Shown: one piece after another, positions 6 to 24,985 of the stretch
Numbering within the stretch: the first letter of the stretch is position 1
Layout: the number at the start of each line of letters is the position of its first letter
IMG/VR virus record: IMGVR_UViG_2548876964_000015
Location: 1 to 35,062 of that record
Direction: 5' to 3' (one strand)
Length of the DNA stretch: 35,062 nucleotides
DNA from: a virus
Lineage: Duplodnaviria > Heunggongvirae > Uroviricota > Caudoviricetes
The notes under the pieces: generated by a model
What the model was told of the DNA's origin: nothing
What the model saw: only the letters and a program-made list of their open reading frames with translations
The model's database searches: none
Program-made: the position numbers and the translations under genes

Positions 6-80
6 GATGGTGTAGCTCAGCGGTAGAGCAGTTGGCTGTTAACCAACTGGTCGGTAGTTCGAATCCACCCACCATCGCCA
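6..80 (+). tRNA. tRNA-Asn (anticodon GTT)
   Basis: Cloverleaf read by eye: acceptor 6-12 GATGGTG pairs with 70-76 CACCATC; D-stem GCTC/GAGC; anticodon stem GTTGG/CCAAC with loop CTGTTAA (GTT at 38-40); T-loop TTCGAAT; CCA encoded at 78-80. One A-C mismatch in the T-stem. Confidence 0.75.
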
Positions 81-85
81 CTTTA

Positions 86-172
86 GGGGAGTTAGTCCGT
101 AGGGGTAGCGGGGTAGACTGTAAATCTACTGTCATTGCGACTCGGGTGGTTCGACTCCATCACTCCCCACCA
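86..172 (+). tRNA. Type-II (long variable arm) tRNA-like gene, anticodon GTA (Tyr-like); D-arm irregular
   Basis: Acceptor 86-92 GGGGAGT pairs with 162-168 ACTCCCC; perfect anticodon stem GTAGA/TCTAC with loop CTGTAAA (GTA at 120-122); 15-nt variable arm; T-loop TTCGACT; CCA at 170-172. The D-arm does not fold canonically, so it may be a pseudo-tRNA. Confidence 0.5.
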
Positions 173-176
173 CATT

Positions 177-252
177 GCCGATTTAGCTCAGTTGGTAGAG
201 CAGTCGCTTTGTAAGCGAATGGTCAGCGGTTCGATCCCGTTAATCGGCACCA
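177..252 (+). tRNA. tRNA-Thr (anticodon TGT)
   Basis: Acceptor 177-183 GCCGATT pairs with 242-248 AATCGGC; D-stem GCTC/GAGC; anticodon loop TTTGTAA (TGT at 210-212); T-loop GTTCGATCC region; CCA at 250-252. Confidence 0.8.
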
Positions 253-257
253 ACATA

Positions 258-330
258 ACAGGTAAGAGCATTCTCCCTTATGGGGCCTGGCTTAAATGCA
301 TCGAGTGCTCTTACCGTTGTGATGAAGTGC
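258..330. repeat. Hairpin unit copy 1 (10-bp stem GGTAAGAGCA / TGCTCTTACC, 261-270 with 306-315)
   Basis: Shares the 20-nt block ACAGGTAAGAGCATTCTCC and the tail CCGTTGTGATGAAGTGC with the copy at 899-990. Confidence 0.45.
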
Positions 331-599
331 AGATCTTAGAAGCAACCAGAAGATAAGCATCTGGCTTCACAACATAAACCGCAGGAACGACCAATAAACG
401 GTAGTCCGTATGGAGAACACCCCGTTGAGGAAGAGGCCTGGCCGGAACCGTAACCGGCGACTGGTAATGTGTGTAAATGGAGCGAAATATGTGGGCGTTT
501 AACGGGATACGGGTTGTAACAGCGATTATTAACGGCGAACTTAAGTATTCACGTTTCGAGACAAATGAACGTGATGGGAAATGTATTGGTGTGCGGTTA

Positions 600-725
600 G
601 TAAGAGAATACGCATAACAACTACAACGTTGAGAACACTGGCGTAACGGGGTCATATCCCAATCTACGAATAAATGTTGCGTTGCCGCGTGACAACCAGT
701 GTTCTCAACATTGTGGTGAATGCAC
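600..725. repeat. Hairpin unit copy 2 (14-bp perfect stem GTTGAGAACACTGG / CCAGTGTTCTCAAC, 628-641 with 686-699)
   Basis: Loop carries GTAACGGGGTCATATCCCAATCTAC, also present at 922-946; tail CATTGTGGTGAATGCAC resembles the tails of copies 1 and 3. Confidence 0.45.
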
Positions 726-898
726 AGGCTGATGTGCCGCAACTACAGTAGTGCGCGCTTTGCGGGGCTTGCTACAACCCTGTGTCGGAGTTCAGCACCG
801 ACCATCACAGTTTGATTCTCTGGCATGAGCATAACGCTGAAATAAGTCCAGTCTGGTGCGGTCTGATCACCCGCCGTTAGCTCCACGAAACGGAGCAC

Positions 899-990
899 GT
901 AACAGGTAAGAGCATTCTCCTGTAACGGGTTCATATCCCAATCTACAGGTCCACCAAGAATGCTCTTTCCGTTGCGGTGAATGCGGCTAA
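899..990. repeat. Hairpin unit copy 3 (11-bp stem AAGAGCATTCT / AGAATGCTCTT, 908-918 with 957-967)
   Basis: Same 5-prime block as copy 1 and same loop block as copy 2; tail CCGTTGCGGTGAATGCGG. Confidence 0.45.
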
Positions 991-1125
991 GCGCACGCGG
1001 GGAAATGGTTATATCTGTCCATTATTTCTCCTTGTTTCCACGTCCACGGTGGATAACCAGCCAAAGGACACCGGGAGGAACCCGGCACCGCAGCTTTTTT
1101 ATTCGTTAAATAATGGAGTGAGAGG

Positions 1126-1344
1126 ATGCAGAACAATCCGAACAAATGTCGAACGCTATGGGTGCGGTTATATATTTATGCCGTCCTCTGTTTGATTGTG
1201 TCACTGGTTCTGTATGTTTGGCTTTTGCCAAATATGATCTCATCTAACAGCACAATACTTGTATTGTTGGGAGTCCTTCTCGCGCTCATTTACCCGGCTT
1301 TCGCAGTAGTCTTTTTTCGTGAAAAAAACCAGGAAATTAATTAA
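1126..1344 (+). CDS. Small hydrophobic membrane protein (72 aa, two predicted helices)
   Basis: ATG preceded by GAGAGG; strongly hydrophobic sequence; stop overlaps the next start (TAATG), implying translational coupling. Confidence 0.55.
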   Translation: MQNNPNKCRTLWVRLYIYAVLCLIVSLVLYVWLLPNMISSNSTILVLLGVLLALIYPAFAVVFFREKNQEIN

Positions 1345-2171
1345 TGAAAAAAACGTTGATTAGTGCAGCGATTATTTTGGGTTCTTTATGTCTGACCGGA
1401 TGCGATCGGGTAGAGCCAGGTAACGTAGGGATCAAAGTAAATAAGCTGGGGGATGATAAAGGTATCGGTGAAGTAGTTGGCGTTGGTCGCTACTGGACAG
1501 GCTTGAATACTGAAGTTTATATCTTCCCGACCTTTAAGCAAATGAAGACATACGATGAGCCGTTCAGCTTCCAGATGAGCGACGGAACAACCATTGGTTA
1601 CCACATCGGCGTAGCCTACAAGGTTGATCCAGCAAAAGTCACAACGGTATTTCAGACCTATCGCAAAGGTGTAGATGATATTACTGATACCGATCTACGC
1701 CAGAAGGTTGCAGATGCTCTGAACCGATTAGCCAGCAAAATGACCACCGACAAATTTATCGACGGTGGCAAATCTGAATTGCTTGATGCAGCCCTTAAAG
1801 ACATTCAGGAAGAAATGACGCCAATCGGCATTCAGGTGATGAGCCTCTCTTATGTAGGTAAGCCAGAATACCCGCCAACAGTTATTGACAGTATTAACGC
1901 CAAAGTCACGGCAAACCAAAAAACCCTGCAACGCGAGCAAGAGGTCAAACAACGTGAAGCAGAGGCCAACATGCTGCGCGCGGAAGCTGCCGGACAGGCT
2001 GATGCTATTCGCACAAAAGCCCAGGCCGAAGCTGATGCCATTCGTTTACGTGGTGAAGCTCTGCGCCAGAACCCCGGTGTTATGGACTTGGAAGCGATCA
2101 ACAAATGGAACGGTACATTACCGCAGTATATGACCAGTAATACCGCTGTTCCGTTTGTTCCGGTGAAATAA
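1344..2171 (+). CDS. SPFH/band-7 (stomatin-prohibitin-like) lipoprotein
   Basis: N-terminal signal peptide with lipobox LTGC; band-7-like core; C-terminal Ala/Glu/Gln-rich coiled coil. Domain call by eye only. Confidence 0.7.
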   Translation: MKKTLISAAIILGSLCLTGCDRVEPGNVGIKVNKLGDDKGIGEVVGVGRYWTGLNTEVYIFPTFKQMKTYDEPFSFQMSDGTTIGYHIGVAYKVDPAKVTTVFQTYRKGVDDITDTDLRQKVADALNRLASKMTTDKFIDGGKSELLDAALKDIQEEMTPIGIQVMSLSYVGKPEYPPTVIDSINAKVTANQKTLQREQEVKQREAEANMLRAEAAGQADAIRTKAQAEADAIRLRGEALRQNPGVMDLEAINKWNGTLPQYMTSNTAVPFVPVK

Positions 2172-2198
2172 AAGCGTAAGCAAAATTGGCAGTAATCC

Positions 2199-2274
2199 GG
2201 CCCTTTAGCTCAGTGGTTAGAGCTGGCGACTTATAATCGCACGGTCACCGGTTCAAGTCCGGTAGGGGCCACCA
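2199..2274 (+). tRNA. tRNA-Ile-like (anticodon TAT)
   Basis: Acceptor 2199-2205 GGCCCTT pairs with 2264-2270 AGGGGCC (one G-T); D-stem GCTC/GAGC; anticodon loop CTTATAA (TAT at 2232-2234); perfect T-stem ACCGG/CCGGT; CCA at 2272-2274. Confidence 0.75.
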
Positions 2275-2548: not shown

Positions 2549-3924
2549 GTGCTAATGTCTGCATCCCCTCTTGAATCCATGCCAAATTCCCTTAGTGCAG
2601 AACAAGCTGTACTTGGTGGCTTAATGCTTGATAACTGCCGCTGGGATGAAGTTGCAGATCGTATAGTTGCTGATGATTTTTATACCAGTGCTCATCGTGA
2701 AATTTTCAGTGAGATGGAGAGGTTATTAAGTCATGGCAAACCGATTGATTTGATAACACTTGCTGAAGCACTTGAACAGAACGGTAAATTAGAACAGAAC
2801 GCGCCGGTGGTTTTGCGTACCTTGCGGAGATGTCAAAGAACACGCCCAGCGCGGCAAATATTTGTGCTTATGCGGATATCGTTCGTGAACGCGCGGTTGT
2901 TCGTGAAATGATTTCCGTCGCAAATGAAATAGCTGAAGCTGGATATGCGCAGGATGGCAGGGGCAGCAATGAATTGCTGGATATGGCCGAGCGCCGCGTT
3001 TTTGAAATAGCTGAAAAACGACAAAAGAGCGGTAGTGGTCCAAAAGATATCGCCAGCATTCTCGATGCAACGGTATCTCGCATAGAAGAGTTGTTTCAGC
3101 GACCGCATGATGGTGTAACGGGGCTTGATACCGGATTTACCGATCTCAATAAGAAGACGGCAGGACTTCAGGCGTCCGATCTCATTATTGTCGCCGCCCG
3201 CCCATCGATGGGGAAGACTACGTTTGCGATGAATCTCGTCGAAAATGCCGCAGTCCGTAACGATAAGCCCGTATTGGTTTTTAGCCTTGAGATGCCGAGC
3301 CACCAACTGATGATGCGCTCACTGGCTTCTCTTGCACGCGTTGATCAGACTCGTATTCGAACAGGGCAACTTAACGACGAGGATTGGGCGCGGGTTTCTG
3401 GCGCAATGGGGATTCTGTTGGACAAGCAGAATATTTTTATTGATGACTCAAGCGCCCTGACACCTACAGAGCTTCGTTCCCGCGCTCGTCGTGTTTATAA
3501 AGAAAATGGTGGTTTGAGCATGATTATGATCGACTACCTGCAACTTATGCGCGTCCCCGAGCTGCAAGATAACCGAACGCTGGAAATTGCCGAGATTTCT
3601 CGCTCACTGAAGGCTTTGGCGAAGGAATTACAAGTACCGGTGGTGGCATTGTCACAACTTAATCGATCGCTTGAACAGCGTGCGGACAAACGACCGGTAA
3701 ATTCAGATTTACGTGAATCAGGAGCAATTGAGCAGGACGCAGACCTGATCATGTTTCTGTATCGCGACGAAGTTTATCACCCGGATAGCGAAATGAAGGG
3801 CATTGCCGAGGTAATTATCGGAAAGCAACGAAATGGCCCAATTGGCACGGTGAGATTGGCTTTTAACGGCCAATACTCACGGTTTGATAACTATGCTGGT
3901 GCTGACTGGCAAGAGGATTATTAA
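2549..3924 (+). pseudogene. ban: DnaB-family replicative helicase (P1 ban-like) split by a frameshift near 2798-2810
   Basis: ORF 2549..2911 encodes the DnaB N-terminal domain (AEQAVLGGLMLDN...IDLITLAEALEQNGKLEQ); ORF 2830..3924 in the next frame encodes the rest (Walker A ARPSMGKTT, C-terminal motifs). The conserved GGFAYLAEMSKNTPSAAN is only in frame after a shift around GAACGCGCCGGTGG. Confidence 0.8.
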
Positions 3925-4922
3925 TGCAATGGAATGAGGAAAAGCCGATGAACATCCTGATCATTGGGAGAAAATTTGAAGCTATCAGTGATGTGAAAAC
4001 ATATACGGAAATGTGGGCTTACAACCTGGCCTGCGCCTTTAGTGAGGCAGGGGTAACATTGCAATACCATCGTCCATATTCCCCTGGCGTCGAAAGCCCG
4101 GAGGATTATGTTGAAGCTGTGTTGACTGCTGCGACCGCATGTTCTGCGAAGGCCATTTTGGCACCAGGATTGAGGTATTTTACTACGGTACCCAGGGAAA
4201 TAGGCATGCAACTGTGTCGCCGATTCTCTGGATGGGTAGCCCAGGTATATGACGGTTCTATGCTGGATTCGGCACCAGTCGATATTACTTTTACTGTCCG
4301 CGATGATACCTGGCGGTACCTGGATAATCCCGGCAGGTTAGAGCGTCATAATCGCTTTAACAAACATGTTGGATGGGCAGCGAATCAGGAACTGTTCCAT
4401 CTGGAAACCAAGACAGACGATGTTCTGCGTATTTTTGTAGACCACGCTGCATTTGATGTTAGTGGGTTTGATCACTCCTTAAGTATCCTTATGAACCTTC
4501 AGCGTCTGACCGTTCCGTATGAGGCCAGAACGTTGACCGATGACGGATTGGTTACCATTGATCCGGGGAATATTTCGGTAACTCCATACAGGCGGACGCC
4601 GGTGCCAGCAACCGAATTTGCAGCTGAATTGCGTAAGAGTGACGTTTTTATCGTTACGCATCCCGAAAGCCTTGGATTAACTGTACTTGAGGCGGCAATG
4701 TGCGGGGCGTTGGTATTAACGCCTCCCGATTGCCTTCCGCCAGATCGCCTGGCTTTGGTGAACCATATGGTTATCAAGTCGCGGATTGATTGGGATGAGG
4801 TTATTGCTCGCGTTGATCGCGTGAAAAATGCTGAAAAGGTCCAGTGTCACACCTGGTCGGCAATTGCGGAAAAGATGCTTGAGACGTTTATCACGCAGAA
4901 ACCGTCGCGCGGTAATGATTGA
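3924..4922 (+). CDS. Hypothetical protein with glycosyltransferase-like (GT-B) C-terminal motif
   Basis: ATG overlaps the ban stop (TAATG); motif THPESLGLTVLEAAMCGALVL resembles the E-x7-E region of GT1/GT4 enzymes. Function is inferred. Confidence 0.5.
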   Translation: MQWNEEKPMNILIIGRKFEAISDVKTYTEMWAYNLACAFSEAGVTLQYHRPYSPGVESPEDYVEAVLTAATACSAKAILAPGLRYFTTVPREIGMQLCRRFSGWVAQVYDGSMLDSAPVDITFTVRDDTWRYLDNPGRLERHNRFNKHVGWAANQELFHLETKTDDVLRIFVDHAAFDVSGFDHSLSILMNLQRLTVPYEARTLTDDGLVTIDPGNISVTPYRRTPVPATEFAAELRKSDVFIVTHPESLGLTVLEAAMCGALVLTPPDCLPPDRLALVNHMVIKSRIDWDEVIARVDRVKNAEKVQCHTWSAIAEKMLETFITQKPSRGND

Positions 4923-4968
4923 TTCTATTCATATGATTGCGATTGTATTGATTTTTACGATACCGCTT

Positions 4969-5001
4969 ATTGCTCTAATAAATTTGATTTATTAGAGCAA
5001 A
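4969..5001. promoter_or_regulatory. Palindromic pair of C1-operator-like sites
   Basis: 4969-4985 ATTGCTCTAATAAATTT is a 17/17 match to the P1 C1 operator consensus as I recall it; an inverted 14/17 copy overlaps at 4985-5001, giving TTGCTCTAATAAAT-TTGA-TTTATTAGAGCAA. Confidence 0.7.
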
Positions 5002-5086
5002 TAAACTACCATCGAACGCCAGACTATTGATCTTCCTGTTGTTCAGGCTTATAGTTCCTACGTCGTAGTAAATTCTGCGACCGGGT

Positions 5087-5107
5087 TTGACAGCCTGAAT
5101 GTACATG
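5087..5107 (+). promoter_or_regulatory. Candidate antisense target pair a1/b1 (TTGACAG 5087-5093, GTACATG 5101-5107)
   Basis: Exact reverse complements of the two 7-mers inside the c4-like RNA (CTGTCAA 5225-5231, CATGTAC 5212-5218). Confidence 0.5.
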
Positions 5108-5113
5108 CGGACA

Positions 5114-5146
5114 ACCGCAGATATCCGATATTGCGGTATTTTTGTG
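5114..5146 (+). terminator. Hairpin followed by T-tract (terminator- or attenuator-like)
   Basis: ACCGCAGATAT-CCG-ATATTGCGGT stem with one bulge, then ATTTTTGTG. Confidence 0.35.
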
Positions 5147-5174
5147 TCCGTAAACCACGTTACGCCCGAATTAT

Positions 5175-5251
5175 GGTGGGGCGTGATGGGGAGGCTTCGG
5201 CCTGCTGGTTTCATGTACGCCAGTCTGTCAACCCCGTCACGTCCTGCCACC
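5175..5251 (+). ncRNA. c4: c4-like antisense repressor RNA candidate (77 nt)
   Basis: 5-prime GGTGGGGCGTGATGGGG can pair over about 17 bp (with G-U pairs) with 3-prime CCCCGTCACGTCCTGCC, leaving a 3-prime ACC tail; internal region exposes CATGTAC and CTGTCAA, complementary to repeats upstream (5087-5107) and downstream (5255-5290, the latter overlapping the icd ribosome-binding site). Confidence 0.55.
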
Positions 5252-5254
5252 TGT

Positions 5255-5290
5255 TTGACAGCGGGTAGCAGGTTGTTAAACCTGTACATG
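5255..5290 (+). promoter_or_regulatory. Candidate antisense target pair a2/b2 (TTGACAG 5255-5261, GTACATG 5284-5290)
   Basis: b2 lies immediately 5-prime of the GAGG Shine-Dalgarno of the 73-aa ORF starting at 5302. Confidence 0.5.
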
Positions 5291-5301
5291 AGGCCGTAAC
5301 T

Positions 5302-5523
5302 ATGGTTAATGCCAATCCTTGCGCACGCCCTGAATTTATCTGGCGCTTTTACTCCTGCCAGAAACGTCACTATCACTTCGTTATTGCACCGACAGAAGAT
5401 GAGGCTCGCTCTCAGCTTCCGGATGCACCCTGTATTTTCTCTGCCCGCTTTTCCACTTATTCACGCAATTCTCTCAGTTACTGGTGCCTCCCTGTTAACG
5501 CTTCTGCTCAGGAGGGACTATGA
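5302..5523 (+). CDS. icd: Small protein (73 aa) translationally coupled to the antirepressor; icd-like by position
   Basis: GAGG about 10 nt upstream of ATG; stop overlaps the ant ATG (ATGA). Position between c4-like RNA and ant matches the P1 immI layout as I recall it. Confidence 0.5.
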   Translation: MVNANPCARPEFIWRFYSCQKRHYHFVIAPTEDEARSQLPDAPCIFSARFSTYSRNSLSYWCLPVNASAQEGL

Positions 5524-6632
5524 GAACATCGTTAGTTACCCGTGAAGAGATGATCGAGGCAATTGAACAGCACACTGCCTGTATCAGTACCAGGGATATA
5601 CCTGGCGTTATTGCCAACTACTTCATGATCACCAAACAACTTTACCGGAGAAAGGACAAGAACGCGGTTCACCGTATCCTGTTGTCTGATATCCGCGAAT
5701 ACCTGCTCGAACAGGGTCATCTGAATTACGCAACCGTCGCAGCCGAAGCACGCAAGGAGGCACACAGAATGAAAGCAAATAACGTTAAATTAGAAAAAAT
5801 TCATGCACCTTCAGTTCAGGAATCGGAGCTGGTGGTTGTTCAGAATCAGTCTGATGAAATTCCCGTTCTGGAATGGCAGGGAGTACGTGTCGTGACAACC
5901 GAAACTCTTGCTAGAGGGTATGGGGTCGATGAAGCCAATATTCGCAACAATTTGTCTCGCAACCTTGACCGCTTTGAAGAAGGTAAGCATTACTTTCTTC
6001 TAACTGCTTTAAAATTAAGAGAATTTAAGAACAGAGTAACCGGAAGTTACTCTGTTGGTAAGAACGCCAGAAGCCTTACACTCTGGACAGAGCGCGGCGC
6101 TGCACGCATGTCTAAGATCGTGGACACAAATGAAGCATGGGCATTCTTTGAAAAACTGGAAGACAGCTACTTCCGGCAAAAAGAACAGCAACCGGTTGCA
6201 ATCCCCCAGACGCTTCCAGAAGCTCTGCGCCTGGCTGCCGAACTGGCTGAACAAAAGCAACTTCTGGAACAGAAAGCCCACCAGCTAAATCAGCAGCTGG
6301 TGGCCGCCGCTCCTAAGGTCGATTTTGCCGACCGGGTATCAGTAGCTAAAGGGATCCTGATTGGGAATTTTGCAAAGGTTGTTGGACTTAAGCAAAACGC
6401 GCTGTTTGCCTGGTTACGGGAGAACGGCATCCTGATAGCGTCCGGCGGACGTAAAAATGTGCCGTTTCAGCAGTACATAAACGCCGGATATTTCACGGTG
6501 AAAGAAGTGGTGCTGGATGATGAAGATGGCTACCAGATACGGTTGACGCCTCAATTAACGGGTAAAGGCCAGCAGTGGTTGACGCGTAAACTGCTCGATG
6601 CTGGCTTGTTAAAACCGGTGGCGGCTGAATAA
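5520..6632 (+). CDS. ant: Antirepressor (ORF6N/Bro-N-like middle domain plus KilA-C/Ant C-terminal domain)
   Basis: Strong SD GGAGGG; 370 aa; middle segment VLEWQGVRVVTTETLARGYGVD...FEEGKHYF and C-terminal DFADRVSVAKGILIGNFAKVVGLKQNALFAWLRENGIL are typical of phage antirepressors. Confidence 0.75.
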   Translation: MRTSLVTREEMIEAIEQHTACISTRDIPGVIANYFMITKQLYRRKDKNAVHRILLSDIREYLLEQGHLNYATVAAEARKEAHRMKANNVKLEKIHAPSVQESELVVVQNQSDEIPVLEWQGVRVVTTETLARGYGVDEANIRNNLSRNLDRFEEGKHYFLLTALKLREFKNRVTGSYSVGKNARSLTLWTERGAARMSKIVDTNEAWAFFEKLEDSYFRQKEQQPVAIPQTLPEALRLAAELAEQKQLLEQKAHQLNQQLVAAAPKVDFADRVSVAKGILIGNFAKVVGLKQNALFAWLRENGILIASGGRKNVPFQQYINAGYFTVKEVVLDDEDGYQIRLTPQLTGKGQQWLTRKLLDAGLLKPVAAE

Positions 6633-6639
6633 TGGAAGA

Positions 6640-6664
6640 ATGCCCGGTTGATGCCGGGCATAAT
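6640..6664. terminator. Bidirectional hairpin terminator between convergent ant and c1
   Basis: ATGCCCGG-TTGATG-CCGGGCAT followed by AATTTATT. Confidence 0.5.
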
Positions 6665-7516
6665 TTATTGCGCGCTTTCGGGGTTGTCGTTTACTGGCTG
6701 CCCCTTCTTGGTTTTACGGCTGCGCGCAACTGATGCGGCTGACTTAACCTTTTTCTCTTCGCGAGTGATGGCAATTTGTTTTTTTACATTTTCAATATCT
6801 GCCAGGCGATATATTTTTGCCTGCGGCCAGCGGTCGCAGATGATCGGTTCTATAGAGTCATAAAGGCTAAATTTTGCTTTCTCGAATTCACCGTTGATGA
6901 TGATTCCATCACGGAGAGTTTCATCGCAGATAAACACACCACACAGCGGCACATGGTAACTAACTGATTTACCATCATTGTAGTTAGGGCTACTGGAAAT
7001 GTAATGGACGCGCAGCATTGTTTCGCTAAAGCCGTGTACACGCATACGGAATTTTTCATCCTCCGGGTACTGCTTCATTAGCTCTTTTGTTGCTTCCAGG
7101 TTCTCTATGTATTTCGCACTGTGCTCATTGATCCCCGCGCTTTTCTGGATGCGAATGTCCTTATCAATCAGATGAATAATGCGGCCAGCGGTCATGTTGA
7201 CGCTGTTCACAGCTTCTGTCTGATAAGTTGTAACCTTACGCACACCGCGAAGGATGTTAGGCACTGGATATAAAATAGTCTTTGGGATATTGAGGTCTGG
7301 GTACTGTTCCAGTTCCCGCGCCATTAAAGTCCATTTATCAATTTCAGCCTGAATGCTGTCCGTTTCTTTGAACGGCAGAACGACAACCGGGCGTACAGGA
7401 CGACCGTCGCTGGCGGCATCAACGTGTTGGGCGCGTGCAACAGCTTTTTTTAGAAAGAGATCCCTGAAGCTGACGAACTCCTGGTACAGTTGTTCGCCGT
7501 AGACATAATTTATCAT
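6665..7516 (-). CDS. c1: C1 repressor of lysis (immC)
   Basis: 283-aa protein beginning MINYVYGEQLYQEFVSFRDLFLKK, matching my memory of P1 C1 over its length; strong SD GGAGGAGGA upstream. Confidence 0.9.
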   Translation of the reverse strand: MINYVYGEQLYQEFVSFRDLFLKKAVARAQHVDAASDGRPVRPVVVLPFKETDSIQAEIDKWTLMARELEQYPDLNIPKTILYPVPNILRGVRKVTTYQTEAVNSVNMTAGRIIHLIDKDIRIQKSAGINEHSAKYIENLEATKELMKQYPEDEKFRMRVHGFSETMLRVHYISSSPNYNDGKSVSYHVPLCGVFICDETLRDGIIINGEFEKAKFSLYDSIEPIICDRWPQAKIYRLADIENVKKQIAITREEKKVKSAASVARSRKTKKGQPVNDNPESAQ

Positions 7517-12196: not shown

Positions 12197-13333
12197 ATGA
12201 AAGCAATGGGGAATGAAGTTTATCAAAGTCAAAAATGCAAGTTGAAATATTCAAAATCTCAAATTGATAGGGCTGCTCAATTGATAAGGCACGGGTGTAG
12301 TGACGAAGAAAGGCAGCAATCTATTGAAATGATACAAAATTTCCGTGAGCTGCATCTTTATCCATTAATGCTCATGAAAAATCATTTAGCAAGAGCAGCT
12401 GCTAAGGTTGACAAGGACAAAAAGATTCTCGTTGCAAGAAGACTTAAGCGACTTTCTACCATAATAGATAAACTAGAGCGTCCTAGTCTTGATGGAGGCA
12501 GAACTAGCAATGCAATTAAATTAACACGGATGCAGGACGTTGGCGGATGTAGGGCCATTGTCAGAAACTTAGACCAGTTGATACAGCTAAAGGAACGTCT
12601 TTTAAAAAGCAAATCTGTTCATAGGATTGTTAAAGAGTATGATTATCTTACTCCCAAAGACAGCGGCTATAGTGGAATCCACCTTGCATACAGTTGCTTC
12701 GATCAGAAAGAGGATCAATATCCGTGGCGAAAAACAAAGATTGAGATACAGTTAAGAACTCAATTGCAGCATGCTTGGGCTACTAGCCTTGAAATAATTG
12801 ATACCCTTGAAGGTATCAAGCTGAAAACTTCAAGTGAAGGGCATCCAGAATGGAGACGATTTTTCTATCTAGCCGGATGTCTTGTAGCGCACGACGAAAA
12901 AGCCTGCACTCTTGATGAGCTAGTTGTATCTCAGTATGAAGGCGAGCTTAAAGAGCTGGAACGGACTTTATCTGTACGGAGGAAACTAAGCACATACACC
13001 ATCGCCTTAAATTTAACTTCTGACGCGAATTTGATTAAGAAGTTGCCAAAAAATCATAAGGGGCATTACTTAGTAACAATGAGAAATGCAGAAAACAAGC
13101 CCAATACAAAAAACAAAAAAATGTTCCTAGTGTCTGTTCGCGCATTTAAAACAAAAGAAGCAGATGAAGCCCTTGAGGCCTTAAATAAAGACGATTCTAA
13201 TCCTAATGTATTGATATCTGTTCTCGTTGCTACAGATAACATTAAGTCACTAAAAAAAGCCTACCCCAACTATTTTGGCTCAACAAACCAGTTTACAAAA
13301 TTCTTAGATAAGCATCTTCGTAACGAAGGATAG
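12197..13333 (+). CDS. RelA/SpoT-like nucleotide pyrophosphokinase, toxSAS-type with extra C-terminal domain (fused toxin-antitoxin candidate, CapRel-like)
   Basis: Synthetase-domain motifs visible: RMQDVGGCRAIV, KEYDYLTPKDSGYSGIHL, KIEIQLRTQLQHAWA. About 170 aa of unrecognised C-terminal sequence follow. Confidence 0.8.
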   Translation: MKAMGNEVYQSQKCKLKYSKSQIDRAAQLIRHGCSDEERQQSIEMIQNFRELHLYPLMLMKNHLARAAAKVDKDKKILVARRLKRLSTIIDKLERPSLDGGRTSNAIKLTRMQDVGGCRAIVRNLDQLIQLKERLLKSKSVHRIVKEYDYLTPKDSGYSGIHLAYSCFDQKEDQYPWRKTKIEIQLRTQLQHAWATSLEIIDTLEGIKLKTSSEGHPEWRRFFYLAGCLVAHDEKACTLDELVVSQYEGELKELERTLSVRRKLSTYTIALNLTSDANLIKKLPKNHKGHYLVTMRNAENKPNTKNKKMFLVSVRAFKTKEADEALEALNKDDSNPNVLISVLVATDNIKSLKKAYPNYFGSTNQFTKFLDKHLRNEG

Positions 13334-23653: not shown

Positions 23654-24985
23654 CACCCTCCACGCCCTGACGGGCGTGGATTCCTGCTACGTTCAGGCTG
23701 TCGCCTGAATCATTTCGGTGGGTTCCTGCTTCAACGGGCGGCCTGACTGCACCATCCCTCCACAGGCAAGTACGGCGTGCCCCGCCGCTAAAATGTTACG
23801 AGCGCCGTTTACATCGGCGTTCGCTGTATATCCACATACCTGGCATCTGAATTTACTTTGTGACAGGCGATTTTCTTTCGCGGTATGACCACAGCACGCG
23901 CAACGCTGGCTTGTGTACGCTGGCGGCACTGCCAGTACCTGACCGCCATGCCAGAGCTGCTTATACTCAAGCTGGCGGCGCATTTCATACCAGCCCTGAT
24001 CCAGTATCGAACGGTTTAAACCTGATTTTGCCCGGACATTGCGACCCGGCTGACTTATCGTACCCGCCGCTGACTTTGACATGTGTTTAACCTTCAAATC
24101 CTCAATGACAATCATTGCGTGGTTTTTGCTGATGATCGTTGTGACTTTATGAAGGTAGTCTCTGCGGATATTTGCGATACGGGAGTGCAGTTGCTGTATT
24201 TTGCGTTTCTGCTTCTGCCAGTTGTTGCTGAATCTGACCTTGCGGCTTAACTGGCGCTGAAGTCTCGCCAGCTTTTTCTGGTTTTTCTGGAAACTGTTTA
24301 CAGGCTCAAAGACTGTGCCATCTGACAGCGTGGCGAGCCTGGCCACGCCAGCATCCAGTCCGACCATTGATGCTGAAGGGTGAACAGGAGTGGATACTTC
24401 ACTTTCTGTCTGAATACTGATGTACCATTTACCGCAGGACTGGCTGACAGTGACATTTTTCACAATCCCCGTGACCTGCCGGCTGTTACGGTAGCGCATC
24501 CAGCCAAGTTTCGGCAGAAAAATACGGCTGTTTTCCTGGTCGAGCTTAACACCCTGCGGGTAGCGGAATGCATCATTCTGTCCCCGCTTTTTGAATCGGG
24601 GAAAAGCCGCCCGCTTCTGGAAGAAATTTTTGTAGGCCCGCTCAAGGTCTTTCAGTGACTGCTGCAATGGCTGTGAGGGAGAATCTTTAAGCCATTCGGT
24701 TTCAGTGTCTTTTTTCCACTCAACCAACCAGGAAGCCATTTTCGTGTAAGGGATGTATTTATTCCCGGCCTCATAATTCTCATTCTGAAGTGCCAGTGCA
24801 CGATTGAAAACGAAACGACAAGCTCCGGCAAAGAGCCTCATTTGACGCTCCTGTTGACCACCGGGTCTTAACTGGAATTTAAATGCTTGTAGTCGCTTCA
24901 TCCCACTATTTTAAACAAAAACAGTTAGGTGGAAAACCACGCCTTATATCCCCTCCCTGAAGGACGGGATTTTACGGCGCACCGG
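23654..24985 (-). mobile_element. IS200/IS605-family element carrying tnpB only (IS609-like), inserted right after the pro stop
   Basis: Subterminal hairpin CCACGCCC-TGAC-GGGCGTGG at 23660-23679 on the tnpB 3-prime side; no Y1 transposase (tnpA) ORF. The far boundary is approximate. Confidence 0.7.
23693..24901 (-). CDS. tnpB: TnpB (RNA-guided endonuclease, IS200/IS605 accessory protein)
   Basis: 402 aa, [22 protein letters not shown]...; C-terminal zinc-finger CxxC...CxxC and RuvC-like motifs; near-identical in my memory to E. coli K-12 IS609 TnpB (insQ/ydcM). Confidence 0.9.

What the first reader, a model, noticed from the sequence alone, without database searches (positions are those of the whole stretch)
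3924..4922. Glycosyltransferase-like gene translationally coupled to ban
The 332-aa product has a GT-B-type motif (ESLGLTVLEAAMCGALVL). A glycosyltransferase in a replication operon could modify DNA (anti-restriction) or a cell-surface receptor (superinfection exclusion). The call rests on one motif only.
Basis: inference. Interest (0 to 1): 0.4.

Follow-up and report, generated by a model that had tools for sequence, protein, structure and literature searches.

The report
Phage P1 dbn glycosyltransferase gene
This is dbn, a long-annotated and dispensable phage P1 gene for a sugar-transferring enzyme; it looks like one of four P1 glycosyltransferases that build an unknown glycan, not a DNA-modifying enzyme.

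Summary

"Coupled to ban" is only partly right. The TAATG overlap exists, but homologues start at Met9 (ATG 3948, own ribosome-binding site). One P1 lineage has another ORF between ban and dbn. In this window ban is frameshifted.

Dbn belongs to a small family (377 cluster representatives among 1.84 billion). In eight phage lineages it travels with MptE/DUF115-like transferases and a GT8-like transferase. In P1 these are PmgO, PmgP and PmgQ, about 6-8 kb downstream. One phage fuses PmgO and Dbn into one protein. Bacterial members sit in kps-type capsule loci next to a WaaZ-like Kdo transferase.

Published P1 Δdbn, ΔpmgO, ΔpmgP and ΔpmgQ mutants plate normally and show normal restriction on EcoA, EcoB and EcoK. 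DNA modification is therefore unlikely. The acceptor is unresolved: an envelope glycolipid or virion proteins. The gene and its annotation are known; the module is a modest new lead.

The parts
3924..4922 (+). dbn ORF as read by the first stage (332 aa, long form, ATG overlapping the ban stop)
   Evidence: ORF list; 98.1-98.3% nt identity to P1 dbn; P1 annotation
3948..4922 (+). dbn from the conserved start Met9 (324 aa, MNILIIG...); probably the functional N-terminus
   Evidence: homologues start here; P1-like variants in which this is the only possible start
3912..3917 (+). Shine-Dalgarno-like AGAGGA, 6 nt before ATG 3924
   Evidence: read from the sequence
3936..3940 (+). Shine-Dalgarno-like GAGGA, 7 nt before ATG 3948
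   Evidence: read from the sequence
3951..4403 (+). N-terminal Rossmann-like (acceptor) domain, residues about 10-160. Carries family-specific conserved motifs YDGSxLD (D110), TFTVRDD and NxxxGWAA (N146, G150-A153).
   Evidence: secondary structure; conserved columns
4416..4838 (+). C-terminal Rossmann-like (nucleotide-sugar) domain, residues about 165-305. Includes the invariant D173-H174 loop after the first strand.
4665..4718 (+).
   Evidence: aligns with WaaG E281/E289
2549..3924 (+). ban (DnaB-type helicase) upstream, here split by a 5-bp insertion near 2793-2797 into ORFs 2549-2911 and 2830-3924
6..2274 (+). Upstream part of the same P1-type early operon: tRNA-Asn, tRNA-Tyr and tRNA-Thr, a small membrane protein, an SPFH/Band_7 lipoprotein, and tRNA-Ile
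   Evidence: same order in the closest phage, Ro157c2YLVW

Best explanation
The gene is phage P1 dbn. It encodes a soluble cytoplasmic two-domain GT-B glycosyltransferase of GT4 type, with an EX7E motif.

It is not a replication or DNA-modifying function. It is one member of a conserved phage glycosyltransferase set. The other members are two MptE/DUF115-like transferases (P1 PmgO and PmgP) and a GT8-like DxD transferase (P1 PmgQ).

Inferred mechanism: during lytic growth, when C1 repression is lifted, these enzymes act in sequence at the cytoplasmic face. They build a short glycan. Dbn adds a sugar from a nucleotide sugar onto, or next to, the residue placed by the MptE-like partner. By analogy that residue is a CMP-activated ulosonic acid such as Kdo.

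The final acceptor is not DNA. My first choice is a cell-envelope glycolipid, such as LPS core or a capsule-type lipid primer (about 0.35-0.4). Virion proteins are a close second.

Shown here: gene identity, fold, motif conservation, purifying selection, co-occurrence and a fusion. Inferred: enzyme activity, donor sugar, order of action and acceptor.

The confidence of 0.6 applies to the core claim: an active glycosyltransferase working in a multi-transferase, non-DNA glycan module. It does not apply to the choice of acceptor.
For: Identity: 98% nt identity to P1 dbn; P7 calls it glt.

Motif: E248 and E256 are invariant among close homologues. In the 55-sequence family alignment E256 is invariant and E248 nearly invariant; D173-H174, H246 and G261 are also invariant there. 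The motif aligns with the WaaG EX7E.

Selection: ORF intact in 156 of 156 locus fetches; dN/dS about 0.12.

Solubility: no transmembrane segment, pI 5.5.

Module: Dbn, MptE-like and phrog_1962 genes are adjacent in L004, L005, L166 and EP_H11. In the Citrobacter plasmid-phage CP101055.1, in P1 and in pE2865-1 they lie within about 5-8 kb. P0091 is a natural PmgO-class::Dbn fusion, residues 25-215 and 219-521, in a phage contig that also has a PmgQ-like gene.

Partner types: the PmgQ family resembles GT8 and has a DxD motif. The MptE-like proteins share the GPS/N/D/GxD core with E. coli WaaZ.

Cellular relatives: seven bacterial or metagenomic loci have a divergent GT-B, then an MptE-like protein, then a Dbn-like protein. 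Five of the seven also show KpsM/T/E/D/C/S-type or Kdo-synthesis genes in the sampled flank. That MptE class hits WaaZ at 60 bits. WaaZ is the third-Kdo transferase of the LPS core (PMC6358824).

Regulation: P1 puts C1 operators in front of both the ban-dbn operon and the pmgN-pmgQ operon.

Accessory role: dbn, pmgO, pmgP and pmgQ are dispensable for plaque formation (PMC10695390; PMC9024508).
Against: No enzyme activity has been measured for any family member.

Pfam Glycos_transf_1 scores just below its cut-off.

The GRxxxxKG-type phosphate-binding loop of canonical GT4 enzymes is not recognisable. Dbn has D-H-A-A-F-D-V-S where WaaG has G-S-D-F-G-R-K-G (a weak alignment). The donor could therefore be unusual.

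The phage PmgO and PmgP classes are only remotely related to WaaZ, at 7-10 bits. Kdo as their donor is an analogy, not a finding.

Against an envelope acceptor: the phages carry no exporter. The genes are repressed in lysogens. In several phages the set lies inside or beside virion-structure genes (L185, L004, L166).

Single deletions give no phenotype under the laboratory conditions tested.

This window itself lacks pmgO, pmgP and pmgQ.
Confidence: 0.6

Rival explanations
1. Virion glycosylation. Dbn, PmgO, PmgP and PmgQ decorate capsid or tail proteins in the cytoplasm during assembly. Mycobacteriophage glycosyltransferases do this, and Maf-type DUF115 enzymes glycosylate flagellin in a comparable way.
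For: Timing fits: P1 annotates C1 operators, and the late promoter LPpmgL lies upstream of pmgL-pmgQ.

Position fits. In L185 the fused PmgO-Dbn, a PmgQ-like gene and an FkbM methyltransferase sit directly before the head-closure, HK97 gp10-like and tail-completion genes. In L004 and L166 the set lies just upstream of the terminase, portal and capsid genes. PmgO homologues in D3-like Pseudomonas phages lie at about 5.8-6.4 kb of the genome, and some are annotated as structural protein. My recollection, not checked here, is that this position follows the capsid gene. P7 named the genes hdmA-D, for head morphogenesis.

All four proteins look soluble and cytoplasmic (for Dbn).
Against: The P1 virion proteome paper (PMC9024508) does not mention glycosyltransferases or dbn in its main text. 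Dbn is not among the virion-associated proteins listed in its Table S4.

Single deletions plate normally.

Every cellular relative of Dbn examined is in a polysaccharide locus, not a protein-glycosylation locus.

The acceptor domain is about 50% identical between phage and capsule-locus members. That argues for a sugar acceptor rather than a phage-specific protein, at least for Dbn's own step.
Confidence: 0.25
2. DNA glycosylation for anti-restriction. Dbn would transfer a sugar to bases of replicating P1 DNA, as T4 alpha-glucosyltransferase does, or as the arabinosyltransferases of 5-hydroxycytosine phages do.
Against: Those DNA enzymes rank below about 20 ordinary GT4 enzymes.

I saw no base-hydroxylating or hydroxymethylating enzyme in the window or in the P1 regions examined.

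P1 Δdbn, ΔpmgO, ΔpmgP and ΔpmgQ show normal restriction on EcoA, EcoB and EcoK.

Homologues in other phages are not next to replication genes. Cellular homologues are in capsule loci.

From my own knowledge, not tested here: P1 DNA is readily cut by ordinary restriction enzymes, and no glycosylated base has been reported in it.
Confidence: 0.05
3. Dbn is a catalytically dead or vestigial glycosyltransferase-fold protein, retained for a structural or regulatory role or by hitch-hiking.
For: No phenotype on deletion or knock-down. The canonical GT4 phosphate-binding R/K loop and the N-terminal GG loop are not evident. The Pfam score is below its cut-off.
Against: Purifying selection is strong: dN/dS about 0.12, and the ORF is intact in every locus fetched. 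The EX7E glutamates and about 13 other positions are invariant or nearly so across a family down to about 22% identity. Co-inheritance and a fusion with other transferases also argue for activity.
Confidence: 0.05
4. Dbn glycosylates queuosine in tRNA. This is speculative. The same operon carries tRNA-Asn(GUU) and tRNA-Tyr(GUA), which are queuosine-bearing tRNA types, and the human mannosyl-queuosine synthase is, from memory, a GT4-type enzyme.
For: Only co-location with the tRNA genes, plus my recollection about the human enzyme. I did not test this.
Against: Homologues in other phages and in bacteria are not linked to tRNA genes in the gene lists returned for those loci. They are linked to other glycosyltransferases and to capsule genes. 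The L075-type P1 variants and the multi-transferase module are not explained by this idea.
Confidence: 0.02

Closest known systems
Phage P1 Dbn (YP_006544.1), P7 Glt (AAQ07543.1) and RCS47 'putative glycosyltransferase, Dbn'
   Same: This is the same gene: 97-98% nt identity, the same position after ban, and the same 332-aa reading frame as P1. NCBI names the cluster 'glycosyltransferase family 4 protein'.
   Different: The last codon before the stop differs (GND versus GNG). In this window the upstream ban is frameshifted and the downstream neighbour is different. P7 annotates a later start giving 287 aa (864 nt); as I read the model, that would remove the first strand and helix of the fold.
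GT4 retaining GT-B glycosyltransferases (WaaG, PimA/PimB', MshA, BshA, sucrose-phosphate synthase, GlgM)
   Different: Sequence identity is only 11-15%. Dbn is shorter, at about 320 aa against 340-400. The N-terminal GG loop and the GRxxxxKG basic loop are not recognisable. A profile of the Dbn family retrieves only 377 cluster representatives and does not reach generic GT4 proteins. The donor, the acceptor and the stereochemistry are unknown.
T4 DNA alpha-glucosyltransferase (1y6f) and the phage HY126 glycosyltransferase (9iqz)
   Different: Those phages also make hydroxymethylated or hydroxylated cytosine. I saw no such pathway near dbn. P1 Δdbn has no restriction phenotype on the three type I systems tested.
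E. coli WaaZ (third-Kdo transferase of the LPS core), Maf flagellin glycosyltransferases and other MptE/DUF115 proteins. These are relatives of Dbn's partner proteins, not of Dbn itself.
   Same: The proteins encoded next to Dbn carry the MptE-like core. The capsule-locus class hits WaaZ at 60 bits. A WaaZ-type enzyme paired with a GT4-type enzyme is also the logic of LPS core assembly.
   Different: Phage PmgO and PmgP are distinct classes (phrog_4603 and phrog_2111), only 7-10 bits from WaaZ. E. coli WaaS, the sugar transferase acting on the Kdo region, is not related to Dbn.
Glycosyltransferases of mycobacteriophages that glycosylate capsid and tail proteins (from my own knowledge and from titles)
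   Same: Non-essential, cytoplasmic, multi-enzyme glycosyltransferase sets in temperate phages.
   Different: No sequence relationship was tested. No glycosylated P1 virion protein has been reported in the papers I read.

Membership tests
Phage P1 Dbn orthologue group (phrog_2518) | Full-length, high-identity match to P1 Dbn | tested here: met
   98.1% nt identity over 992 of 999 nt to NC_005856 dbn; 98.8% aa identity by tblastn; phrog_2518 E=8.6e-240 over residues 1-331
Phage P1 Dbn orthologue group (phrog_2518) | Position immediately downstream of ban in a P1-type early operon | tested here: met
   Gene order tRNAs, SPFH, tRNA-Ile, ban, dbn, as in Ro157c2YLVW and pE2865-1. In this window ban is frameshifted.
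GT-B fold glycosyltransferases | Two Rossmann-like beta/alpha/beta domains with an inter-domain cleft and a C-terminal helix returning to the N-domain | tested here: met
CAZy GT4 / Pfam Glycos_transf_1 (PF00534) | Sequence match above the curated family threshold | tested here: inconclusive
   25.0 bits against a cut-off of 26.4, E=1.5e-5, residues 229-315 only. The precomputed table lists PF00534.27 for the 98%-identical cluster P0001 but not for most homologues.
CAZy GT4 / Pfam Glycos_transf_1 (PF00534) | EX7E motif in the C-terminal domain | tested here: met
   E248-x7-E256 are invariant in 18 homologues; across 55 family members E256 is invariant and E248 is at least 90% conserved. hhalign places them on WaaG E281 and E289.
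CAZy GT4 / Pfam Glycos_transf_1 (PF00534) | Basic GRxxxxKG-type loop after the first C-domain strand, which binds the donor diphosphate, and a Gly-rich loop after N-domain strand 1 | tested here: not met
   In the only alignment obtained (hhalign to WaaG, probability 5%), Dbn has DHAAFDVSGFDHS where WaaG has GSDFGRKGVDRS. After strand 1 Dbn has IIGRKFEA, with a single Gly. The alignment is weak and I could not superpose the structures.
CAZy GT4 / Pfam Glycos_transf_1 (PF00534) | Retaining transfer from an NDP-sugar | not testable with these tools
   Needs enzymology.
Phage DNA glycosyltransferases (T4 AGT/BGT type, 5-hydroxycytosine arabinosyltransferases) | Co-encoded pathway that makes a hydroxylated or hydroxymethylated base to serve as acceptor | tested here: not met
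   I saw no such gene among the window ORFs or the P1 annotation examined. P1 positions 48-67.6 kb and 86-94.8 kb were not inspected.
Phage DNA glycosyltransferases (T4 AGT/BGT type, 5-hydroxycytosine arabinosyltransferases) | Loss of the gene changes sensitivity to restriction | tested here: not met
   Published result: P1 Δdbn shows 'normal restriction' on EcoA, EcoB and EcoK (PMC9024508 Table S3). Other restriction or defence systems were not tested.
Phage four-glycosyltransferase set (Dbn, PmgO class, PmgP class, PmgQ class); proposed here, not a curated family | Co-occurrence of the partner genes in the same element | tested here: inconclusive
   Met in P1, pE2865-1, L004, L005, L166, EP_H11 and CP101055.1. 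L185 has the fusion and a PmgQ-like gene but no PmgP-class gene. Not met within this 35-kb window, where hmmsearch found no partner. The segment that carries the partners in the nearest complete plasmid is missing here. Whether the rest of this element has them is unknown.

The most novel reading that the evidence does not exclude
Phage P1, and at least seven other phage lineages, carry a dedicated set of three or four glycosyltransferases: Dbn, PmgO, PmgP and PmgQ. Nobody appears to have linked these genes. The set would build a Kdo-type or hexose glycan during lytic growth. The glycan would go either on the virion, which would be the first glycosylated coliphage particle, or on the LPS core that P1 uses as its receptor, which would alter adsorption to infected cells and debris. 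Part of the set would have been captured from kps-type capsule loci.
Probability: 0.3. Interest if true: 0.6.

Novelty: already known. Interest (0 to 1): 0.3.

Why it matters
As written, the finding re-discovers an annotation that has been in the P1 genome record since 2004. It needs no follow-up as a new gene.

What could matter is the context found here. Four "function unknown" or "putative morphogenetic" P1 genes (dbn, pmgO, pmgP, pmgQ) appear to form one conserved glycan-building set. Their relatives lie in bacterial capsule loci, and one phage has fused two of them.

P1 is a laboratory workhorse, and in-frame deletions of all four genes already exist. The question of which glycan P1 makes, and on what, is therefore directly testable. 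A positive answer would bear on phage-receptor biology (P1 adsorbs to the LPS core) or on recognition of phage particles. It would also give a function to a phage protein family that currently has none.

Tried and rejected
- **WaaS homology.** I asked whether Dbn is a homologue of E. coli WaaS, which would have paired neatly with WaaZ-like partners. hhalign found nothing.
- **PDB sequence search with the family profile.** It returned KtrA/YuaA Rossmann domains at E=9e-5. I treated this as a generic Rossmann resemblance of the N-domain, not a functional lead.
- **Internal promoters and a terminator for dbn.** The consensus scan found 2 promoter-like sites against 4.8 expected, and no convincing terminator after dbn. 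There is no support beyond chance for the P1dbn and P2dbn promoters predicted in the P1 record.
- **PADLOC.** No hit for Dbn, PmgO, PmgP or PmgQ.
- **IMG/VR scans.** Two scans were swamped by P1-like contigs and added no new contexts.
- **GTDB genome scan.** It gave only 3 loci, because the search patterns were narrow.
- **AFDB Foldseek library.** Not available.
- **"20-kb deletion" after dbn.** This was my first reading. The nearest complete plasmid has two direct icd-ant cassettes, so recombination or assembly collapse between them explains the junction.
- **Calling the phage partners "WaaZ-like".** I softened this after class-specific HMMs showed that only the bacterial class is close to WaaZ.
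- **Literature.** Searches found no paper on Dbn function, and none linking WaaZ, Kdo and prophages.
- **tRNA-queuosine idea.** Not tested.
Full report
**1. The observation**

- The + strand has an ORF from ATG 3924 to TGA 4920-4922 encoding 332 aa.
- The quoted motif ESLGLTVLEAAMCGALVL is residues 248-265, encoded at nt 4665-4718.
- The ATG shares one base with the TAA of the upstream ban-frame ORF, giving TAATG, and AGAGGA lies 6 nt upstream.
- So the feature is there, at the stated coordinates.

**2. Identity**

- The 999 nt match phage P1 dbn ("downstream of ban") at 98.1% identity. They match P7, SJ46, RCS47 and other P1-like phages at 97-98%.
- The P1 record annotates Dbn as "function unknown, possible glycosyltransferase".
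- P7 calls the gene glt, "putative glycosyltransferase".
- RefSeq names the RCS47 copy and the E. coli protein cluster "glycosyltransferase family 4 protein".

**3. Is it a glycosyltransferase?**

- *Sequence alone is borderline.*
  - Pfam Glycos_transf_1 gives E=1.5e-5, but its 25.0 bits fall below the 26.4-bit cut-off and cover only residues 229-315.
  - NCBIfam gives only noise.
  - The PHROG family has no function.
- *Structure settles it.*
  - An AlphaFold model built on 18 homologues has pLDDT 88.9 and pTM 0.86.
  - It shows two Rossmann-like domains and a C-terminal helix.
  - Foldseek against the PDB puts GT4 retaining enzymes on top: MshA, GlgM, sucrose-phosphate synthase, PimB' and BshA, with E down to 5.7e-10.
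- *Conservation.*
  - The motif is the GT4 EX7E signature. E248 and E256 are invariant in the 18-sequence alignment.
  - In the 55-sequence family alignment E256 is invariant and E248 is at least 90% conserved. D173-H174, H246 and G261 are also invariant there.
  - hhalign places E248 and E256 on WaaG E281 and E289.
- *Selection.* The gene is intact in all 156 fetched P1-like loci, some of which are duplicate fetches of one contig. Median dN/dS is about 0.12 over 59 alleles.
- *Solubility.* There is no membrane segment and the pI is 5.5.
- *One atypical point.* The basic GRxxxxKG loop that binds the donor diphosphate in canonical GT4 enzymes is not recognisable; Dbn has DHAAFDVS there. The alignment is weak.
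- The donor cannot be inferred.

**4. Start codon and "coupling to ban"**

- All non-P1 homologues begin at the equivalent of Met9, MK/NILIIG. ATG 3948 has its own GAGGA 7 nt upstream.
- In 21 of 156 fetched P1-like loci a 101-aa ORF lies between ban and dbn. There dbn can only start at Met9, overlapping that ORF by ATGA.
- In this window ban itself is split by a 5-bp insertion near 2793-2797. None of the other loci fetched has it.
- The overlap with the ban stop is therefore real but not a conserved or necessary feature.
- P7's annotated start lies further downstream still, giving 287 aa. As I read the model, that would remove the first strand and helix.
- The operon also carries tRNAs and an SPFH lipoprotein. 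Its content is mixed, not purely replicative.

**5. The family and its company**

- A profile search of 1.84 billion cluster representatives finds only 377 members at E up to 1e-3, mostly 300-350 aa. This is a small, distinct GT-B family.
- *Phage contexts.* Wherever I could read DNA around a phage homologue, the same partners appear. They are one or two MptE/DUF115-like proteins (phrog_4603, labelled "alpha-2,3-sialyltransferase", and phrog_2111) and a roughly 220-aa phrog_1962 "glycosyltransferase".
  - The genes are contiguous in three metagenomic phages (L004, L005, L166) and in E. coli phage EP_H11.
  - They lie about 5 kb apart in the Citrobacter 95-kb plasmid-phage.
  - In P1 the partners are pmgO, pmgP and pmgQ, about 6-8 kb downstream of dbn. 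They sit behind a second C1 operator.
- The phrog_1962/PmgQ family has a DxD motif and resembles GT8 enzymes: Skp1 alpha-galactosyltransferase at E=1.3e-5, then glycogenin and LgtC.
- P0091 is a natural fusion of a PmgO-class domain (residues 25-215, 106 bits) and a Dbn domain (219-521). It sits in a phage contig beside a PmgQ-like gene and an FkbM methyltransferase. I take the fusion together with the co-occurrence as good evidence that these proteins work together.
- *Cellular contexts.* Seven bacterial or metagenomic loci, including Brucella pseudogrignonensis and a Colwellia MAG, show the order:
  1. a large GT4;
  2. a divergent roughly 320-aa GT-B;
  3. an MptE-like protein;
  4. a Dbn-like protein.
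- Five of the seven also show kps-type genes in the sampled flank: KpsM/T transporter genes, KpsE, KpsD, KpsC/S, or the Kdo-supply genes KdsA, KdsB and KpsF.
- The MptE-like class in these loci is a clear WaaZ homologue at 60 bits. The phage PmgO and PmgP classes are only remote relatives at 7-10 bits. WaaZ is the transferase for the third Kdo of the E. coli LPS core (PMC6358824).
- Dbn is 38-53% identical between the phage copies and the capsule-locus copies. Its acceptor-side N-domain is highly conserved, which suggests a sugar acceptor common to both settings.

**6. Experimental record**

- CRISPRi knock-down shows that dbn, pmgO, pmgP, ppp and pmgQ are dispensable for P1 plaque formation (PMC10695390).
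- In-frame deletions of each gene give infectious phage with "normal restriction" on EcoA, EcoB and EcoK hosts (PMC9024508 Table S3).
- I found no paper on Dbn's function.

**7. Interpretation**

- *Best-supported reading.* Dbn is an active GT4-like transferase. It works with PmgO, PmgP and PmgQ to assemble a short glycan during lytic growth.
- *DNA acceptor: unlikely, for five reasons.*
  - Deletion causes no restriction phenotype.
  - I saw no pathway that would make a hydroxylated base.
  - The DNA glycosyltransferases T4 AGT and HY126 rank below many ordinary GT4 enzymes.
  - Homologues elsewhere are not linked to replication genes.
  - Cellular relatives build polysaccharide.
- *The true acceptor is open. 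For an envelope glycolipid, such as LPS core or a capsule-type lipid primer:*
  - the capsule-locus ancestry of the family;
  - the WaaZ, GT8 and GT4 enzyme types, which mirror LPS core assembly.
- *For virion proteins:*
  - the genes are repressed in lysogens;
  - in L185, L004 and L166 they sit beside or inside the virion gene blocks;
  - PmgO relatives in D3-like phages are annotated as structural protein in some records;
  - P7's authors guessed head morphogenesis.
- I rank the envelope slightly ahead, at about 0.35-0.4 against 0.25. Neither is shown.

**8. Novelty and score**

- The gene and its annotation are already known. The fold confirmation is routine.
- The linkage of dbn with pmgO, pmgP and pmgQ, the fusion, and the capsule-locus relatives did not appear in the literature I could search. 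They make a testable lead, because the mutants already exist.
- This window is a poor place to study it. ban is frameshifted, and the segment carrying pmgO, pmgP and pmgQ is absent, probably through recombination or assembly collapse between two icd-ant repeats.
- Interest: 0.3.

Noticed in passing
window 2790-2800 (ban, 2549-3924): A 5-bp insertion (AGAAC duplicated) frameshifts ban into two ORFs, 2549-2911 and 2830-3924. None of the other loci fetched has it, while about 150 P1-like loci carry the intact sequence. It could be a real pseudogene or a sequence error.
   Followed up: yes
window 4916-7516: Gene order departs from P1 directly after dbn. Here dbn is followed by icd-like, ant (370 aa) and c1, then cre. 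In the nearest complete plasmid, pE2865-1, one icd-ant cassette follows dbn at 69.9 kb and a second precedes c1 at 96.6 kb. About 26 kb lies between them: the baseplate and tail genes, pmgL-pmgQ, phd/doc and pacAB. The window looks like a recombination or assembly collapse between these direct repeats. No PLSDB plasmid has the whole junction contiguous.
   Followed up: yes
window 2199-2274 (tRNA), position 2232: The P1 trnI-type tRNA differs from P1 and from Ro157c2YLVW by a single base, at anticodon position 34 (CAT to TAT). It would read AUA directly instead of needing lysidine modification by TilS.
   Followed up: partly
window 1126-2171: A small membrane protein and an SPFH/Band_7 lipoprotein occupy the place of P1 tciA, tciB and tciC in the ban operon. 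An extra tRNA-Tyr lies at 86-172. The same arrangement is found in Ro157c2YLVW and pE2865-1.
   Followed up: partly
window 12197-13333: A 378-aa ORF with a RelA/SpoT-type nucleotidyltransferase domain sits between mat and ulx/darB, where P1 has the EcoPI res/mod genes. It may be an alarmone-synthetase-type toxin or a defence gene.
   Followed up: no
window 23693-24901 (- strand): A TnpB (IS605 OrfB / Cas12f-like) gene is inserted between pro and the lysis genes, as in pE2865-1.
   Followed up: no
L075 7699-8004, and 20 other fetched P1-like loci: A P1 lineage carries a 101-aa ORF of unknown function between ban and dbn. It overlaps the ban stop and the dbn Met9 start.
   Followed up: partly
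L185 4304-5872 (protein P0091): A natural fusion of a PmgO-class MptE-like domain and a Dbn domain. It lies in a phage structural gene block next to a PmgQ-like glycosyltransferase and an FkbM methyltransferase.
   Followed up: yes
proteins P0098, P0110 and others: Some family members are longer. P0098 has two Dbn domains in tandem. P0110 has a Dbn domain plus a SAM-methyltransferase domain. Several 520-555-aa proteins have an uncharacterised C-terminal extension of about 200 aa.
   Followed up: partly
window 5520-6632: The Ant-like protein (ORF6N plus KilAC domains) matches PADLOC candidate-system models PDC-S05, E=8.6e-8.
   Followed up: no
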